Below, piece by piece: positions 1 to 37,612 of a stretch of 64,000 bases of DNA. Made by a program: the position numbers and the translations under genes. Below the pieces are notes generated by a model. That model saw only the letters and a program-made list of their open reading frames with translations. It did not search any database and was not told the DNA's origin. Within the stretch, counting starts at the first letter, position 1. Every line of letters starts with the position of its first letter. The stretch is from Octopus vulgaris (taxonomy: Eukaryota): contig OX597828.1 of assembly GCA_951406725.2 (NCBI GenBank), forward strand, positions 66,774,001 to 66,838,000, written 5' to 3'.

Positions 1-640
1 GAATATTTTGCACAATGAACTTAGCATGATGACGGCTTCTGCTTGATGGGTGCCATGTCTTCTGACACCGGATCAATTCATGGGAAAATCTGAGATTGAG
101 GCAGACCCAGCCAGTTTCTTTTAATGTTTCCTAACCCAAGATGAGTGATCAGTTCACAACTTAGAGCTAGAGACAATCCATGCAGTGGAAGCACCCCCTC
201 CTCACCTGCTCCAAATAAGACCAAAGTTATTTTACCTGCAGGGAAGGTGATGGCCTCAGTTTCTTGGGATGCAAAAAGTATTGTGTTTATTGACTATTTT
301 CAAAGGGGCCAACCCATCAACGGAGAGTATTATGCCAACTTACTGAGGCAGTTACAAAAGGCCATCAAGACCAAACACCCAAGAAAACTGACAAAAGGGA
401 GTCTTGTTTCACTAGGACAATTCTCCAGCACACAAGTCCTTGCTTTCAATGGCTTCTGTGCATGACTGTGACTTTGAACTGGTTGATCACCGTCCCTGTT
501 CCCCTGATTTGGTCCCATCTGACAATCATCTGTTCCCCAGCATGAAAAAACACTTGGCTGGGAACCAGCATCACCATGATGTTGACGTCATACCTGCTGT
601 TGATGACTCTTTCGACAAACAGGATGACAGCTTCTTTACC
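1..640 (+). mobile_element. Degenerate mariner (Tc1/mariner) transposase relic
   Basis: Frameshifted pieces WVPCLLT, AGKVMASVSWDAKSIVFIDY..INGEYYANLLRQL and FELVDHRPCSPDLVPSDNHLFPSMKKHLAG match the mariner WVPHxL and HPPYSPDLAPSD motifs. Confidence 0.85.
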
Positions 641-29838: not shown

Positions 29839-30363
29839 CTGATATTCTGGCAAAATGTGTATGGCCACGAGGAAATATTACTTTGCTTGGAAACAAGTGA
29901 GACTTTAAAACATTTGCCTCAATAAACTCCATCTGGTCCATACAGGCATAGAAAAGTGGACATTAAAATGATGATGTATATTTTATTAAATCAGATAATT
30001 ACTCTTTATCTGACTGAAATCATGATTTATCTTCACCTTTGTTTCTTCCATTATTCTTTCTTTCATTAAAATGTGACAAGCTGGCAGAATTGTTAGCAGC
30101 ATTTCCGCTGTCTTTATGTTTTGTGTTCAAATTCCACTGACTTTGCCTTTTATCCTTTCAGGGTCAATAAAATAAATACCAGTTGAGCACTGGCATTGAT
30201 TTCATCGACTTACCCACCTCCCCAGATATTGCTGGCCTTTTGTCAAAATTTGAAGCCCATATTCTTCACAGTATTTTAAATAGATTTATTTATATATATT
30301 TTTATACTCTGATTAAAATCATTTGTCTTAGTTTTATATTCTTTTCTTTTTGCTCCATTCCAG

Positions 30364-30444
30364 ATCTGGCTTGCCATGTTCCCTTCCTGCTGGCTTAGTC
30401 CAAATTGTCAACAGTCAGTTGGCTTGGAATATTGCTGTTGGAAA
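30364..30444 (+). CDS. NBAS: NBAS coding exon 4
   Basis: ttccag|(K)SGLPCSLPAGLVQIVNSQLAWNIAVG|gtgagt; resembles LPDGLVRLVNKQINW; 81 nt, phase 2 to 2. Confidence 0.92.
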
Positions 30445-31164
30445 GTGAGTAATCAATTGACTTGTTTTGTTACTGTTTGATTCATTTGTACTTAGTCGTT
30501 ATGTAAAAGTTTTATAGGCGCAGGAGTGGCTGTGTGGTAAGTAGCTTGCTTACGAACCACATGGTTCCAGGTTCAGTCCCACTGCGTGGCATCTTGGGCA
30601 AGTGACTTCTACTATAGCCTTCATATAATGAAGGAAATTGTTGTTTACAGCACTCAGATGCACTACAACCAAAAAACAAAATAAAAAAGCCATCGAGTGT
30701 AGTGTTAGCAGATTTCAGGAAGCATGGAAGGTTTGAAGGATGCAGTGCTCTGACAACTAACAACTGATGCTGGCAGTCTGTTCCATGCTTCAGCAACTCT
30801 TAGCGTGAAAAAATGTTTCCGAAAGTCATGGGAGCTGTGCTGTTTTCTGACTTTGTAAACGTGTCCACGGGTGTTAGAAATGTAGAGTTTGAAAAGGTGC
30901 TCGGAGTTATTGTTTGTAAGATGTATAACTTTTGTTTTTTTTTTTGTTTTTCTACACCTGAGCTGTTTCCGTTATAATTACACCTTTTTTTATATCATAA
31001 TTTCTTGAGGTATCAAATATCTTGTTTAAATCTAAAGATTAACCAATTTTGCTCTTTAACAATATTGACAATATTCTAATTGACCGCATTATGAGTTATT
31101 TCCCTTTGTGGCTCTATAATATATTGTGTACATAACGTGAAATTTTGCTCATTTCTTTTTGCAG

Positions 31165-31212
31165 ATTTGGTCAGTTAGTTGCCATATTACAAGACCAGTT
31201 TATAGAAATAAG
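31165..31212 (+). CDS. NBAS: NBAS coding exon 5
   Basis: ttgcag|(K)FGQLVAILQDQFIEI+AG|gtgagt; resembles GKLLAAVQDQCVEIR; 48 nt. Confidence 0.92.
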
Positions 31213-33134
31213 GTGAGTTTGCATTCTGACTTCTGTAGGAAACCAAGCTAATTGCTTGATATATGGTACATATTTTATCTTTTGATGATTGAAAGTTTGA
31301 TTTAAAGTCTGAAGCCTTTTTCTTTATAGCTTTATATGGTAGCGTTGGCAGGGATGAATATATATCGGTTGGGATGAGTTCTTTCTGATTCTGATACATG
31401 TTGACAAGGAGAGTGGAAAGAGGGATGGTGATGTTGAGGTTTCATGTTTTGGTGCAGTGTGGAATGGGAAGCAAAGTGCTTAGGGAATGTGCAGTTTTGT
31501 TTGGAGAAAAAACATTTTTGTATCGTCATCATCATCATCATTTAACGTCTGTTTTCCATGTTAGCATGGGTTGGATGGCTTAACAGGAACTTGTAAAGCC
31601 AGGGGCTGCACCCACCAGGTTTCATAGTCTGGTTTTGGCTTGATTTCTATGGCTGGCTGTCCTTCCTAACTCTAACCGCTCCACAGAGTGTACTGGGTGC
31701 TTTTTATATGGCACCATCACAGCTGCTTTTTAAGTTGTGCCAGCAGCAGTTCTTTTTATGTGGAACTAGAACCCACACCAACACATTTTACATGGCACCT
31801 TTGTTTTAGGATCTGAATTCTGTTGGGGTGGGTGGGTCTTCTCAAGCCCAGCAATGCACCACACACCTCGGTCTTCTGTCATCTGATATGTAGTGATGAG
31901 GCAGTGTTGAATTGATTTTATGAGAGCAGGTTGAATTTAGATGAGAAGAATATAATGTTTCTATTGTTGTATCAAAGAGACCTATCTTTGTCATTCATTT
32001 CTGATCATCATCATGCTCTCCATGCTGGCATGGGTTGGACAGTTTGACATGGAGCTGGCTAAGAAGGAGCTGTCTGGACTCCAGCTGTCTGTTGTGGCAT
32101 GGTTTCTATGACTGGTTGCCCTTCCTAATGCCAACCACCTAATAGAATGTGCTGGGTGCTTTTTACATGTCACTGTCATGGTTGCATTTACCTATCATCA
32201 AAGGCATTCCACATATGACCATTCTGTCTCCTGGTCCCATACATAATGTTCCTTCTTTTATATCAGACACAAGTGTGTATTGGTCTCTATTGTCTAATCT
32301 GTTTCACAGTAGGGCATGATTTGAGTGAGATTTTGCTGCTGTTTATTGTAAGTCAAGTGACTACATAGAAACTCCTTCATTGGCTTAACAAATATAATGT
32401 TTGAAGTGTTGTTGGATTAGGCTGTGGGGAACGAAGTCAGAGAGGTGATTTGTCAATGTCAGATGTTGAGATTGGTTAATATACTAATAACTGTTGACTG
32501 AGGTGTAAAGGTTGATTGGGAAAAGCAAACAAGTTGTGGGTGGTGAAGTTTTCTAAGAGGAGGAGAGTTGAAGATGAAGTTTGCATGTAACATGAGATGC
32601 AGTCAATCGTTAGGCAATGAGTTGGTAACTTAAACCACAATAAACAACAGATGATAATAATCATCATCATCATTGTTTAACGTTCGTTTTCCATGCTAGC
32701 ATGGGTTGGATGGTTCGATCGGTGTCTGGGAAGCCAGGAGGCTGCACCAGGCTCCAGTCTGATCTGGCAGTGTTTCTACAGCTGGATGCCCTTCCTAATG
32801 CCAACCACTCCGTGAGTGTAGTGGGTGCTTTTTACGTGCCAGTGAAGGCTGGCAACGGCCATGATCGGTTGGTGGTTTTACGTGCCACCGACACAGAATA
32901 AATGAGATTGTCTGCTGGACCAGCTAGAAGTCTTTGTTTCTAACATTTAAGATTTGGGAAAAGAGTGAGAGGAAAATAGATTCTGTATAAGCATAGAATA
33001 GTAATATTTTGAATAAAAGTGGGTAAAATAACAGTGAAAATCCAATGGCCTTCATAATGCCAAACTTAATATGTAAAATAAATATAGGTTTTATGCATTT
33101 CACTTCTGAGTCTATTCTGAAAAATTATTTGTAG

Positions 33135-33312
33135 ATCTTCTCATGATGATTACAACAATATAATTGGAAGATCTTGTGTCATGCCTGACACTTGTCCCCA
33201 GTGGCGCCAGATTGCTTGGAGTAGTGATGGTGCATTGCTTGCCGTTTCTCACAGTAATGGCATTATTGAAATATTCGATATGTTTGGAAATCCTCTGTTC
33301 AGTATCCCATCT
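33135..33312 (+). CDS. NBAS: NBAS coding exon 6
   Basis: ttgtag|(R)SSHDDYNNIIGRSCVMPDTCPQWRQIAWSSDGALLAVSHSNGIIEIFDMFGNPLFSIPS|gtaagt; beta-propeller region; 178 nt. Confidence 0.95.
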
Positions 33313-33538
33313 GTAAGTTTTACTGATTTCATATTATTTGTTTTCTATTTCTTTTGTAATATCTTTGAAATATTTTCCTTATAATTTGATGTTACCAGTT
33401 TTATAATTCTTTACTAAATGCTAACACCAGTTTCAACTTTTCAGCAGTTAATACCATTTTTGTAAAATAATTTGAATGTTTATGGAGATGTACTTGCATA
33501 GCGAGTGACTTGATCTGAGATCGTGTGCTGGAACGAAA

Positions 33539-33828
33539 ACAATTTCAGCATGGAAGGTGTTTATAAGCCATTTAAGAAACACACAAAAACCGTTAGATTC
33601 ACTTCAACATTTAAATTTAATTTGTCAAAATATTTTCGTCGCTTTGAGACCGTGACCTGTTCACTGACAAAACTTCGTGCTGCATCTCACAAAGTTTTGT
33701 CAGTGAACAGGTCGTGGTCTCAAAGTGCCGAAAATATTTTGACAAATTAAATTTAAATGTTGAAGTGAATCAAACGGTTTTTGTGTGTTTCTTAAATGGC
33801 TTATAAACACCTTCCATGCTGAAATTGT
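33539..33828. repeat. Near-perfect palindrome (137-bp arms, 16-nt spacer), Penelope-like inverted ends
   Basis: 33539-33675 is the reverse complement of 33692-33828 with few mismatches; each arm holds a hammerhead-like motif. Confidence 0.9.
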
Positions 33829-34608
33829 AATTTGAATGTTTTCATTAAGGAAACAACATTAGCCAGGCTGTTTTTGTTTAATTTTTTTCTGAAAATTATT
33901 ATACATTTATTTCTCAATTCTATTAACATCTCTTTCATCATTCCATCTCCTTCTTAAACTGCATCTTCCCCCATCACACAGCTCATGCCTTTGTTTTCCT
34001 AATTAATTTACTTAACAACCTAGATGTAGCTGCCTTTCACTGTCTCACTTCCATGACTCCCATCTCTACCACCTCCCCACCCACTCCTAACATTCTGTTT
34101 CTCCGATCATACTTGTACTTGGTTTCATTTCATCCTCTCACCTTAGTTTTCTCTCTGTCATCACCTCCATTTTGTGTGTGTGCACGCATACACATGCACA
34201 GTAGAGTTTGTTATATAATTTTTAACCTCCTCATCATCATCATTGTTTAACGTCTGTTTTCCATGCTAGCATGGGTTGGACGATTTTGACTGAGGGCTGG
34301 TGAACCAGATGGCTGCACCAGGCTCCAATCTTGATTTGGCAGAATTTCTACAGCTGGAGGCCCTTCCTAATGCCAACCACTCCGAGAGTGTAGTGGGTGC
34401 TTTTTACGTGCCACTGGCACGGGGGCCAGTCAGGCGGTACTGGCAACGACCTTGCTCGAATCCTTTTACACATGCCACCAGCACCTCGTTAAAATTTTCC
34501 TACTCTTAGTTGGTTATGCTCTCACCTGTTTTCAGAAAATCAAAACAAAACCCGTGCTGCATATATGTTTGATCTATATTCAATGCATTACCCTCTGATT
34601 TCACGCAG

Positions 34609-34706
34609 GTCACTGAAACATCTTCCAGTAATGTTGGAGTACCCACAGATTTGACACACAGTGTTGCAGGACTTGTGTTTTTAGAGAACACCAAAGTGAA
34701 AGATGG
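34609..34706 (+). CDS. NBAS: NBAS coding exon 7
   Basis: acgcag|VTETSSSNVGVPTDLTHSVAGLVFLENTKVKD+GG|gtatgt; resembles DLSYAIAGLIFLE; 98 nt. Confidence 0.9.
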
Positions 34707-34957
34707 GTATGTTGAGCCAGATTTTAAATTTCCTTAGAGAAACTATCTCAGAAGAATGTTTCACATAATATCATTTGTTCACATGGTAGCATGGGGTTGG
34801 CTGGGAAGTTATTTGGGGCAGGATTTGGCTATGGGACGAGTCAGACGCTTATCTTGTTGCCTACTCTTGCCTGTTTTTCCCAAGTGAGAGATGTCTTAGT
34901 CCTACAGGTCTTTGAAAGTGTAGTGCAACTGGTTGTAATGTCAACATCACCAACACT

Positions 34958-35291
34958 TCAGTTCAACTCAACTGAGGTCCATATTGACCCCGGGATTCAT
35001 AGAAGATATTTTTGGGTCCACAGATGTAATATAGTAAATTGGGGGTCCATGGTAATTTTTCAAGGGCCATCGAAAAAATTCTGCTTCAGAACAGTAAAGT
35101 TTATGTGCAATAAATTGGTTACACGTCCCTATTACATAAAATATTTTAACAATTTTTATACAAGTCCTAATAATATTTAATCATAAAAATACAAAAAAAG
35201 ATTTTTTAAACATTGAATGGCTATGGGGGTCCACCAGAGTAAAATAGGAATCAAAGGGGTCCATAGGTAAAAAAATTGGTTGAGACCCCTG
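34958..35291. mobile_element. Probable hAT/Charlie-like non-autonomous element
   Basis: Right end GGTTGAGACCCCTG (reverse complement CAGGGGTCTCAACC), repeated GGGGTCCA subterminal motifs; left end decayed. Confidence 0.45.
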
Positions 35292-35715
35292 AGTTAAATG
35301 GCATTTTCTATGCTATCATGGTTTGGACGGTTCGACCGGGGTCTGGAAGCCATGGAGACTGCACCAGGCTCTAGTCTGATTTGGCAATATTTCTACAGCT
35401 GGATGCTCTTCCTAACGCCAACCACTCCGTGAGTGTAGTGGATGTTTTTTACGTGCCACCAGCACAGGGGCCAGAGCATGCTGGCAAACGGCCACAATCG
35501 GTTGGTACTTTTACGTGTCACCGACATGGACACCAGTCAGGCGGCGCTGCCCTCGTAGATAGATATGTGATAGCTAATTACTGTAAATAATTACCTGTTA
35601 TGTGAATTTCCCCTTTAGTACCAAGAAATAAAACTTAGTTTTATTTATGGAATATTTGATGAGAATGACTAATTATCAATATTGCATTATTTCTTCTTGT
35701 TTCTTTTATTCTCAG

Positions 35716-36016
35716 AACCGCACATCTACTAGTTGTAAACTACTTGGGAAAGTTAAGTAAATACCATGTTGACCGTAACAGCACTTATCGATTACTACAC
35801 ACTTTTATGCTGACCAGTGAACATCCTCAGGGTGTTACAGGGTTAGTTTATCTTCCACAACACAGTGCACTTATTGTTGGCAGTCACGCTCCGGTGGCTG
35901 CTGGCTTAGATGACAGCATGTCTCAAGCAGAACAATATGGTCTTAGTCTATGGCGTATTCTCTCAGATTCTCCACATTACAAACTAGTCACTGACTATGA
36001 GCAAGACTTACATAAG
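35716..36016 (+). CDS. NBAS: NBAS coding exon 8
   Basis: tctcag|(G)TAHLLVVNYLGKLSKYHV..GLSLWRILSDSPHYKLVTDYEQDLHK|gtaagt; 301 nt. Confidence 0.95.
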
Positions 36017-37612
36017 GTAAGTTCTTTTACTCTCTTTCTGTTTTATTTCAGTTATTTAGTTTGTCTTGAAATATCAAGAACTAATGTTGTAGAAATTTTC
36101 TGTGAAATTAAAATATATTTATCAAAGAATATAACAAAAGTATTTTTCTTCTTGATTTGAATAATTTTAGATTCCATAAATTTCATTAAACTTCATGATG
36201 GACACACTTTCATTTGACAACCTGTATTTGTAATACAATTACCTCATTTTGTTTTAGTGCTGTAATTTAGGCTTCAGTTGTGGTATAGGTAGTTGACTGA
36301 ATTGATAGTTTTGGATTTCAGTCTGAAGAATTGACTGATAATATCATCCCTCAGTAGCTGCCAACCTTATGCTGTGTCCAAAGCTGATATACTTAACTTT
36401 ACAGAGCTCAGTCGATTATGCTGTAGATCTTATATTATAAAAGAGAAGTGGATCACCATCTGTTTGCCTGTTACAACATCTATTAGAGGGAGGGAGAGAA
36501 AGAGAGGAATCAAAATATACATATTTTTAGAAGAGGAAAAGAAAAGGTTGTTGTTGAGATAGAAATACAGCTGTGGAGGAAGAGTGAGAGTAAGAGTGTG
36601 TGTGTGTGTGTGATAGATAGATAGTTAGTGTTGTCACCATAGTAACTAACAATTTCTGATTTAAAACACAAGAATTTTGAGTGCAAGTCTGTCAGCACAA
36701 CACAACACAGACTTCAAAACAAGGCCATATATATATAAAAATATATATGTATATAGTGATTTTTTGTTGTTGTTTGTGTGAGTGTCTGTGTATTTCAATA
36801 TATTGATAATGCAACACAGACTTGAAAAACAAATTTTCACCTTGAACAATTTAAGAAGGTACATGCACGATTAACAAATATTTTTACCAGCAGCATAGTG
36901 ACAGATTACAACCTAGTATATATTATCTAGTAGCATGTAGCTAAAGCCTTCATGGTTGCTCTAAATGTTGTCTGTCGCTGTTACTGACGATCTTACCTGA
37001 GAAAGCGTTCTTGAACATAGTTATGACTGAATCTCAAAAAAAGCTCAGGAGAAACCTGCATCTAGGATGGTGCAGCAGCTGTACGTATGGACATCAAAAG
37101 CCACATGACTTTTTTGTATAAAGTCACTTCATCTTCTGACCCATAGATGTGATGTCTGCTCTCTCTCTCTCTCTCTCTCTAGTTTCCTACTGCTTGGCCT
37201 CTACTTGTCAGACACATGTTGACCAGCCCTCTGGAACTCTTTCCCTGGTCGTGTCTTTCCTACAGGTGTTGAGTTGCAAAATATAAAGTGGAACATCAAT
37301 GGCATCAGTCTCAATAGTCTCAGAAGACATGGACACTGACCTTTCTTTCAGACTCAGCAAGTTAAAAAAGAAAAAGAAAAAAGAACAGATACAATTCACT
37401 TCTGCAATTGGCAGAAACACTGGTTGCCCATAGTGAGATATAATGAAACTGACAAGACATCCAGGAATTAAGTGATTGAAAACAACAAAAAACAATAACA
37501 ACATTTATGTTAGAAATTTACAATATATTTAGAAATTCTATACAGGATGTAATTTCTGATAATTAAAAGTTTCTAACTCTGTAATTATTAGTTTTTATAA
37601 TTTTTGTTGCAG

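What the first reader, a model, noticed from the sequence alone, without database searches (positions are those of the whole stretch)
33539..33828. Palindrome holding two hammerhead-like motifs with a swapped G3-C8 core
Seen: plus strand 33696-33746 reads TTTGTCA-GTGAACA-G-GTCGT-GGTCTCAAA-GTGCC-GAAA-ATATTT-TGACAAA, mirrored on the minus strand at 33671-33621 (GTCAC..GCGAC). There is a perfect 7-bp stem I (TTTGTCA/TGACAAA), a palindromic AATATT stem III, and a two-arm consensus stem II GTCGC/GCGAC. The core GUGAACA is CUGANGA with both partners of the 3-8 pair exchanged. Known: positions 3 and 8 form a Watson-Crick pair in the active hammerhead, and Penelope-like elements leave inverted terminal repeats. 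Inference: a Penelope-like family with a compensatory core variant and a UUU cleavage triplet, invisible to standard CUGANGA searches.
Basis: partly seen in the sequence, partly recalled or inferred. Interest (0 to 1): 0.75.

Follow-up and report, generated by a model that had tools for sequence, protein, structure and literature searches.

The report
Swapped-core hammerhead in octopus Penelope element
The palindrome is a short, decayed, head-to-head double copy of a jumping-gene family with about 7,000 copies in an octopus genome, whose RNA leader carries a small hammerhead-type motif with two paired core letters swapped relative to its sister families; it is likely a natural working variant, but cutting is untested.

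Summary
Observation confirmed. The palindrome is a 346-bp insertion with a 14-bp target duplication in an NBAS intron: two 5'-truncated, head-to-head copies of a Penelope-like element. The family has about 7,000 motif copies. Its young members (98-99% alike) carry RT plus GIY-YIG frames and keep the same G3-C8 core and stems. Sister families in the same genome (one 54% identical in protein) and a metagenome relative have C3-G8 at the same place, with compensatory changes in stems I and III. So this is a true minimal-hammerhead homologue with a swapped 3-8 pair. I found no natural G3-C8 in the papers I could read; the swap is known only as a partly active lab mutant. This scan noted G3-C8 before on other DNA (protist Penelope-like elements, phages; unchecked).

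Limits: cleavage is untested. The swap is one event. Mismatched G3-G8 and A9C lineages also amplified. 0 of 76 copies start at the cut site; most come from uncut RNA. The two window motifs are damaged, lie on opposite strands and would be locked in a 141-bp hairpin. U17 and invisibility to Rfam are shared with canonical sisters.

The parts
33468..33481 (+). Left copy of the 14-bp target-site duplication
   Evidence: family D18
33482..33687 (-). Long-end copy of the Penelope-like leader: from the common RNA 5' end (preceded by a G not in the genomic template) to the distal tail end about 90 nt into the ORF
   Evidence: comparison with natural element L093
33621..33671 (-). Hammerhead-type motif, G3 (33664)-C8 (33659) core, one mismatch in stem II
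33482..33571 (-). First ~30 codons of the element's ORF (the tail region)
   Evidence: ATG at 33571; ORF start seen in L093
33688..33827 (+). Short-end inverted copy, ending about 32 nt into the ORF
33696..33746 (+). Hammerhead-type motif, G3 (33703)-C8 (33708) core, U17 at 33739, predicted cut 33739/33740; stem II decayed
33796..33827 (+). First ~10 codons of the ORF
   Evidence: ATG at 33796
33828..33841 (+). Right copy of the target-site duplication
   Evidence: family D18
33172..33312 (+). Host context: part of an NBAS exon, followed by GTAAGT; the insertion lies in the next intron
   Evidence: Pfam Nbas_N E=1.7e-10

Best explanation
The palindrome is a decayed head-to-head insertion of two short copies of a Penelope-like retrotransposon whose RNA leader holds a minimal type I hammerhead homologue with G3-C8 in place of its sister families' C3-G8, and this motif likely still cuts weakly, only as a dimer or with help from the element's protein. 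Shown: family size, link to RT + GIY-YIG frames, position between the common 5' end and the ATG, two fixed 3' ends, inverted pairing of copies, homology and covariation with C3-G8 relatives. Inferred: transcription starts about 58 nt upstream of the cut site (capped). RT starts internally at one of two tail sites about 32 or 90 nt into the ORF and runs to the 5' end of the uncut RNA, giving 170-230-nt copies that are often inserted as inverted pairs like this one. In tandem transcripts (two sense motifs 4,261 nt apart in one element) two motifs would pair through the AAUAUU palindrome. The 2'-OH at position 8 would then be held by a G3-C8 pair, as in the lab C3G/G8C rescue. U17, already present in the nearest canonical sisters, may have allowed the swap, because C17 would pair strongly with G3. 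The two copies in the window are predicted to be inactive.
For: Link: 41 of 49 endonuclease ends in 40 loci have the motif 972-1,437 nt downstream, 40 of the 41 with G3-C8 (two places were fetched twice; the 8 misses include short loci and one sister-family copy). 1025-aa frame with YVDD, CX3CxxC linker, CCHH and Pfam GIY-YIG E=1.7e-5. L093 is leader-motif-ATG-ORF-leader. Young ORF copies are 98.4-99.2% identical. Homology not selected by pattern: family B (54.7% aa) and metagenome contig L194 (47% aa) were found by protein and have C3-G8 motifs at the matching place. Whole-genome counts on one scaffold: G3-C8 7,110, C3-G8 1,894, G3-G8 376, C3-C8 96; reversed controls 17, 18, 31, 8. In 12 chosen rows 94.4% of 144 cells pair, 9 of 12 pairs change on both sides, the 3-8 pair is CG 8 / GC 4 / unpaired 0, and 0 of 500 shuffles reach this. 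Young vs older subfamily: 0 of 42 motif columns differ against 13 of 124 loop and flank columns (Fisher p=0.019; flanks only p=0.057). Intact copies fold stems I and II with mean pair probability 0.95-0.97. No other letter reached 10% at positions 3 or 8 in contigs of four runs from four coded organisms (5 rows hidden). 3' ends: 59 of 155 at +26..38, 83 at +80..95. 5' ends: 32 of 76 at -66..-52, only 1 further upstream. A G absent from the template precedes 9 of 15 such ends (p=0.004), and 0 of 65 copies that continue upstream. C3G/G8C partly restores cleavage in a PLE hammerhead that needs its protein (PMC11167929).
Against: No cleavage data. The swap is a single evolutionary event: copy counts are not independent, and the four GC rows are one family. 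Most sister rows were found with a pattern that fixes CUGANGA and GUC/GAC. A G3-G8 mismatch lineage amplified (220 exact hits, 125 on C16 or later). The young sister family B has C at conserved position 9 (16 of 18 readable cores). Both suggest loose selection on the core in this clade. 0 of 76 5' ends lie within 3 nt of the cut site and 62 of 76 span it; sister B is similar (19 of 25 span, 2 within 3 nt). The lowest-energy fold adds a G3-U17 wobble that would compete with G3-C8. The extra nucleotide is G, whereas the published consensus is H, though canonical sisters share the G. The AAUAUU duplex is weak (-0.2 kcal/mol).
Confidence: 0.62

Rival explanations
1. The motif is a hammerhead descendant that no longer cuts. 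Its stems are kept for another job at the RNA 5' end (protein binding, promoter or RT template structure) or by slow decay, and the 3-8 swap was fixed under weak or no catalytic selection.
For: G3-G8 and A9C lineages amplified. Integrated copies come from uncut RNA. Hammerhead mutants do not affect insertion in vitro and no RNA-seq ends were seen at the cut site in PAc (PMC11167929). Naiads proliferate without canonical hammerheads (PMC8557442).
Against: Exactly the two paired core positions changed, by two transversions, to the one state known to rescue activity, while U4, G5, A6, A9, G12-A15.1 and U16.1 stayed. The young family is 34 of 34 G3-C8. The G3-G8 copies examined are a minority even in the subfamilies that hold them, apart from the C16 loop variant (5 of 7).
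Confidence: 0.3
2. The functional unit is the 141-bp hairpin in the host NBAS pre-mRNA (a double-stranded RNA or editing substrate), and the hammerhead resemblance is incidental to this locus.
For: The whole insert folds as one hairpin of -228.7 kcal/mol inside an NBAS intron.
Against: 46 of 76 sampled arms have an inverted partner, so the palindrome is the family's ordinary insertion form. Nothing marks this copy as conserved. Inverted truncated copies are a described PLE trait (PMC8557442).
Confidence: 0.05
3. A MITE or chance palindrome with a coincidental hammerhead-like pattern.
For: The window copies fold no better than shuffles; no Rfam hammerhead hit.
Against: The motif is linked to RT-GIY-YIG frames, has fixed internal 3' ends and variable 5' truncation, and has canonical homologues at the same position. 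Rfam also misses those canonical homologues.
Confidence: 0.02

Closest known systems
Minimal type I hammerheads (min-HHR) of metazoan Penelope-like elements (Cervera & de la Pena 2014, PMC4209133)
   Same: Type I layout in the pLTR, one extra nucleotide between 9 and 10.1, G10.1-C11.1, palindromic helix III region, U17 common, mostly single or inverted truncated copies.
   Different: G3-C8 core. None of the 56 rows of Fig. S3 begins with G3 (they begin CUGA or UUGA). The only core covariant the main text reports is U3-A8 in Schistosoma mansoni. The extra nucleotide is G, not H.
PAc (Poseidon_Ac) hammerhead and tail (Frangieh et al. 2024, PMC11167929)
   Same: Motif near the ORF start, two internal RT start sites giving two 3' ends, AT-rich targets, uncut RNA as the main template; engineered C3G/G8C partly active.
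   Different: Here G3-C8 is the natural state. The motif lies wholly upstream of the ATG. The two ends are about 58 nt apart. The ORF has a CX2-5CxxC linker, which Poseidon lacks.
Natural hammerhead core variants (Perreault et al. 2011, PMC3088659)
   Same: A 3-8 covariation kept as a Watson-Crick pair.
   Different: The section read reports U3-A8, not G3-C8.
Neptune-type C-terminal EN+ Penelope-like elements (features from Craig et al. 2021, PMC8557442)
   Same: Single ORF with RT, CX2-5CxxC linker, C-terminal GIY-YIG with CCHH, tail, inverted truncated copies, frequent insertion beside (TA)n.
   Different: Clade placement not tested with named references; non-canonical hammerhead core.

Membership tests
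Penelope-like element (EN+) | Single ORF with RT domain | tested here: met
   YVDD-containing 1025-aa frame. No Pfam RT hit. The best homologue is named 'Reverse transcriptase domain-containing' by its source.
Penelope-like element (EN+) | C-terminal GIY-YIG endonuclease with CCHH | tested here: met
   Pfam PF01541 25.5 bits, cutoff 22.6; two Cys between the GIY- and YIG-like motifs and two later His read
Penelope-like element (EN+) | Pseudo-LTRs from partial tandems, inverted 5'-truncated copies, tail at one end | tested here: met
   L093 leader-ORF-leader; 46 of 76 arms inverted-paired; two 3' ends in 142 of 155 copies
Neptune clade | CX2-5CxxC linker between RT and EN | tested here: met
   CX3CxxC before the EN; criterion from PMC8557442
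Neptune clade | RT phylogeny groups with named Neptune elements | not testable with these tools
   No named PLE reference set was available
Minimal type I hammerhead | Stems I and II close the core, with covariation | tested here: met
Minimal type I hammerhead | Literal CUGANGA core | tested here: not met
   GUGAACA in 95 of 100 listed hits; 0 exact C3-G8 on the family scaffold. So filed as a variant, not a canonical member.
Minimal type I hammerhead | Watson-Crick pair between 3 and 8; other core bases (U4 G5 A6 A9 G12 A13 A14 A15.1 U16.1, H17) kept | tested here: met
Minimal type I hammerhead | Palindromic helix III region for dimer formation | tested here: met
   AAUAUU is self-complementary, but the duplex is weak
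Minimal type I hammerhead | Site-specific self-cleavage | not testable with these tools
   Needs an in vitro assay. Indirect genomic test negative: 0 of 76 5' ends at the cut site; the sister family is alike.

The most novel reading that the evidence does not exclude
An actively spreading animal retrotransposon naturally uses a catalytically working G3-C8 hammerhead, the lab-only rescue mutant, in about 7,000 copies. It was reached from C3-G8 on a permissive U17 background. Its clade also carries amplified A9C and G3-G8 cores, so descriptor searches undercount PLE hammerheads and some 'hammerhead-less' PLE families may hold swapped cores.
Probability: 0.45. Interest if true: 0.65.

Novelty: new variant of a known kind. 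Interest (0 to 1): 0.5.

Why it matters
The C3-G8 pair positions the hammerhead's general acid. Natural covariation at this pair was reported only as U3-A8 in the papers read, and G3-C8 only as an engineered, partly active rescue. A high-copy natural case with canonical sister families in the same genome gives phylogenetic support for the pair and a ready set of natural variants (C3-G8, G3-C8, G3-G8, A9C) for one assay. That set bears directly on an open question: whether PLE hammerheads need to cut at all for transposition. The genomic 5'-end map adds that most copies were made from uncut, probably capped RNA. The window copy itself is ordinary decayed repeat DNA.

Tried and rejected
Rfam on window 30000-37000 gave no hammerhead among 10 matches at E<=10; the control on 8 loci, 6 with canonical cores, gave none among 94, so the blank is uninformative. 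L061, two same-strand motifs 3,455 nt apart, proved to be a segmental duplication, not a full element. I first read the boundary upstream of the motif as a 3' splice site. It is disfavoured because the 32 copies ending there share no upstream exon and often carry an extra G; a transcription start fits better, but this is not settled. The first subfamily test and tree (p=0.0005) included insertion-site flanks and were discarded; one search is the trimmed test, and the tree could not place the G3-G8 lineage as basal or derived. The first long-ruler 5'-end mapping jumped into microsatellites; one search replaced it for the focal family, while the sister-B figures still come. My generic scanner missed family B's motif because of its C9 and bulged stem I. 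Pattern CUGANGA plus this family's helix III gave 7 hits, none a separate family. Sequencing runs: no RNA holder listed; only contigs were laid, so no evidence on expression, RNA ends or cleavage. The depth step across the motif is confounded by loop II divergence. The exact ORF is not in the protein collection. The metagenome scan gave 2 loci, one useful. Luense et al. 2017 (PMC5785218), the paper on dimeric PLE hammerhead variants, is not held and could contain G3-C8 cases. No look-alikes or same-genome notes in earlier findings.

Full report
Observation. The inverted repeat is real: arms 33539-33679 and 33688-33828, 141 nt, 96% complementary. The motif strings are as written. The insertion lies about 170 nt downstream of an exon that matches Pfam Nbas_N (E=1.7e-10). 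Both window motifs have a damaged stem II and fold no better than shuffles. The whole insert folds as one hairpin of -228.7 kcal/mol.

Family. The arm matches a dispersed repeat (53 matches from 40 of 1,694 candidates scored). The 20-mer around the core, with N at positions 3 and 8, has 6,905 exact hits and the reversed control 0; 95 of the 100 listed are G3-C8. The C3-G8 form of that 20-mer has 0 hits. Walking upstream led to a GIY-YIG frame. A protein search then found a young subfamily. In 40 loci, 41 of 49 endonuclease ends have the motif 972-1,437 nt downstream, 40 of them G3-C8 (two places fetched twice). [quoted passage not shown] L093 shows the whole unit, leader-motif-ATG-ORF-leader, with one in-frame stop; its two sense motifs are 4,261 nt apart. 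Young ORF copies are 98.4-99.2% identical to L087. By the criteria in PMC8557442 (passages) this is a C-terminal EN+ Penelope-like element of Neptune type; the clade was not tested by tree. The host is an octopus by inference: a named Octopus vulgaris prediction is 98.9% identical to a sister family in G000.

Is it a hammerhead homologue? Family B, found by protein search (54.7% identical over RT-EN, homologous N-terminus), has at the same leader position a motif with C3-G8, the same extra G, a GUC/GAC stem II base and the same six-base spacing to stem I. Metagenome contig L194 (47% identical; 1 of 2 loci) has a fully canonical minimal hammerhead after its stop. A scaffold pattern then showed more canonical sister families. 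Whole-genome counts on that scaffold are G3-C8 7,110, C3-G8 1,894, G3-G8 376 and C3-C8 96, with reversed controls 17, 18, 31 and 8. By my eye count of the first 100 G3-G8 rows, about 47 are this family, 15 sisters, 36 an unrelated repeat and 2 other. On 12 rows I chose, 94.4% of 144 cells pair, 9 of 12 pairs change on both sides, and 0 of 500 shuffles reach this; the 3-8 pair is CG in 8, GC in 4, never unpaired. Cautions: the four GC rows are one family and one event; most sister rows were selected for CUGANGA and GUC/GAC, though stems I and III were not in the pattern; the stem II pair 4 change could come from CpG decay. Between the young (34 copies) and older (18 copies) subfamilies, 0 of 42 motif columns differ against 13 of 124 loop and flank columns (p=0.019; flanks alone p=0.057). 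Contigs of four runs from four coded organisms list no other letter at 10% or more at positions 3 or 8 (5 rows hidden; contigs only).

How copies arise. 3' ends fall at two sites, +26..38 (59 of 155) and +80..95 (83 of 155) of the ORF, 13 elsewhere. The window has one of each, as in the published tail signature (PMC11167929 parts 1-2 of 4; PMC8557442). In 76 arms taken in positional order from contig C1 (some are the two arms of one insertion; five share one breakpoint), 32 5' ends lie at -66..-52 from the predicted cut, 1 extends further, 29 lie at -51..-8, 4 within 7 nt, 0 within 3 nt, and 10 downstream. A G not in the template precedes 9 of 15 ends at that boundary (14 of 21 in all loci; 0 of 65 copies that continue upstream). 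I infer a capped transcription start; that RT copies the cap as a G is recalled knowledge, from no call. So most copies are complete reverse transcripts of the uncut RNA 5' end. 46 of 76 arms have an inverted partner, so the palindrome is the family's routine form.

Does it cut? Not shown. For: only the paired positions 3 and 8 changed, to the state that partly rescues activity in the lab (PMC11167929; PMC8495972 passages); intact copies fold stems I and II with mean pair probability 0.95-0.97. PMC3884650 (passages) notes that a G3-C8 variant does worse with C17, which fits my inference that U17, already in the nearest canonical sisters, was permissive. Against: a G3-G8 lineage amplified (220 exact hits; 95 on C1-C15, the other 125 on C16 or later); young family B has C at position 9 in 16 of 18 readable cores, whereas other B-type copies have A9; no 5' ends at the cut site in this family, and few in B (2 of 25); G3-U17 extends stem I in the lowest-energy fold; the extra base is G against a published H consensus; the helix III duplex is weak. 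Published PLE hammerheads are themselves weak and dimer- or protein-dependent, so the lack of cut ends does not single out this variant.

Prior art. PMC4209133 (main text parts 1-3 of 4; supplement parts 1-2 of 3) reports U3-A8 only, and none of its 56 aligned rows has G3. PMC3088659 (passages, outline, section 8) reports U3-A8. Passages of PMC6155905, PMC6765202 and PMC11014351 and part 1 of 5 of bioRxiv 10.64898/2026.07.22.740005 gave no natural G3-C8. Seven searches found none, nor an octopus PLE hammerhead. Luense et al. 2017 could not be read, its supplements may bear on novelty, and the library lacks most subscription papers. Earlier notes of this scan report G3-C8 motifs in four other PLE-linked loci and in phages; I did not check them and do not count them as support.

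Verdict. A real minimal-hammerhead homologue with a swapped 3-8 pair in a recently active Penelope-like family: new variant of a known kind. The identity of the element is near certain, catalytic activity about even to modestly likely, and the window copy is inert debris. Interest 0.5.

Noticed in passing
L114 5930-5903 (-), L117, L267-L296: The young, high-copy sister family B (1312-aa frames, tandem units) has C instead of A at hammerhead core position 9 (16 of 18 readable cores); other B-type copies have A9. A second non-canonical core in an active family.
   Followed up: partly
G000 C16, e.g. L064-L067; A G3-G8 mismatch sublineage of the focal family (220 exact hits), clustered on C16 and often with its own loop II variant; the linked ORFs seen are broken. 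Intermediate or later loss is unresolved.
   Followed up: partly
L197-L266; window 33687: Family copies pile up at one 5' boundary about 58 nt upstream of the cut site, often with an extra G, which maps a likely capped transcription start from genomic copies alone. The sequence just upstream also resembles a branch point plus splice acceptor.
   Followed up: partly
window 33482-33827: The insert would form a 141-bp, 96% paired RNA hairpin in an NBAS intron, a possible A-to-I editing substrate.
   Followed up: no
L166, L169-L172, L180, L193 (1501-1539): An unrelated, conserved repeat matched the G3-G8 scaffold pattern (about 36 of 100 listed rows); no stem I was evident. Not identified.
   Followed up: no
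L134-L163: At least three further canonical minimal-hammerhead PLE families in G000 (1,894 pattern hits in all), none detected by Rfam in the six loci tested.
   Followed up: partly
window 31507-35549: Several copies of a common dispersed repeat that begins with a CAT triplet run flank the finding (families D1-D9).
   Followed up: no
L061 9000-8050 (-); L087 9942-9043 (-): Fragments of other retroelement frames; the L061 one has a weak GIY-YIG match.
   Followed up: no
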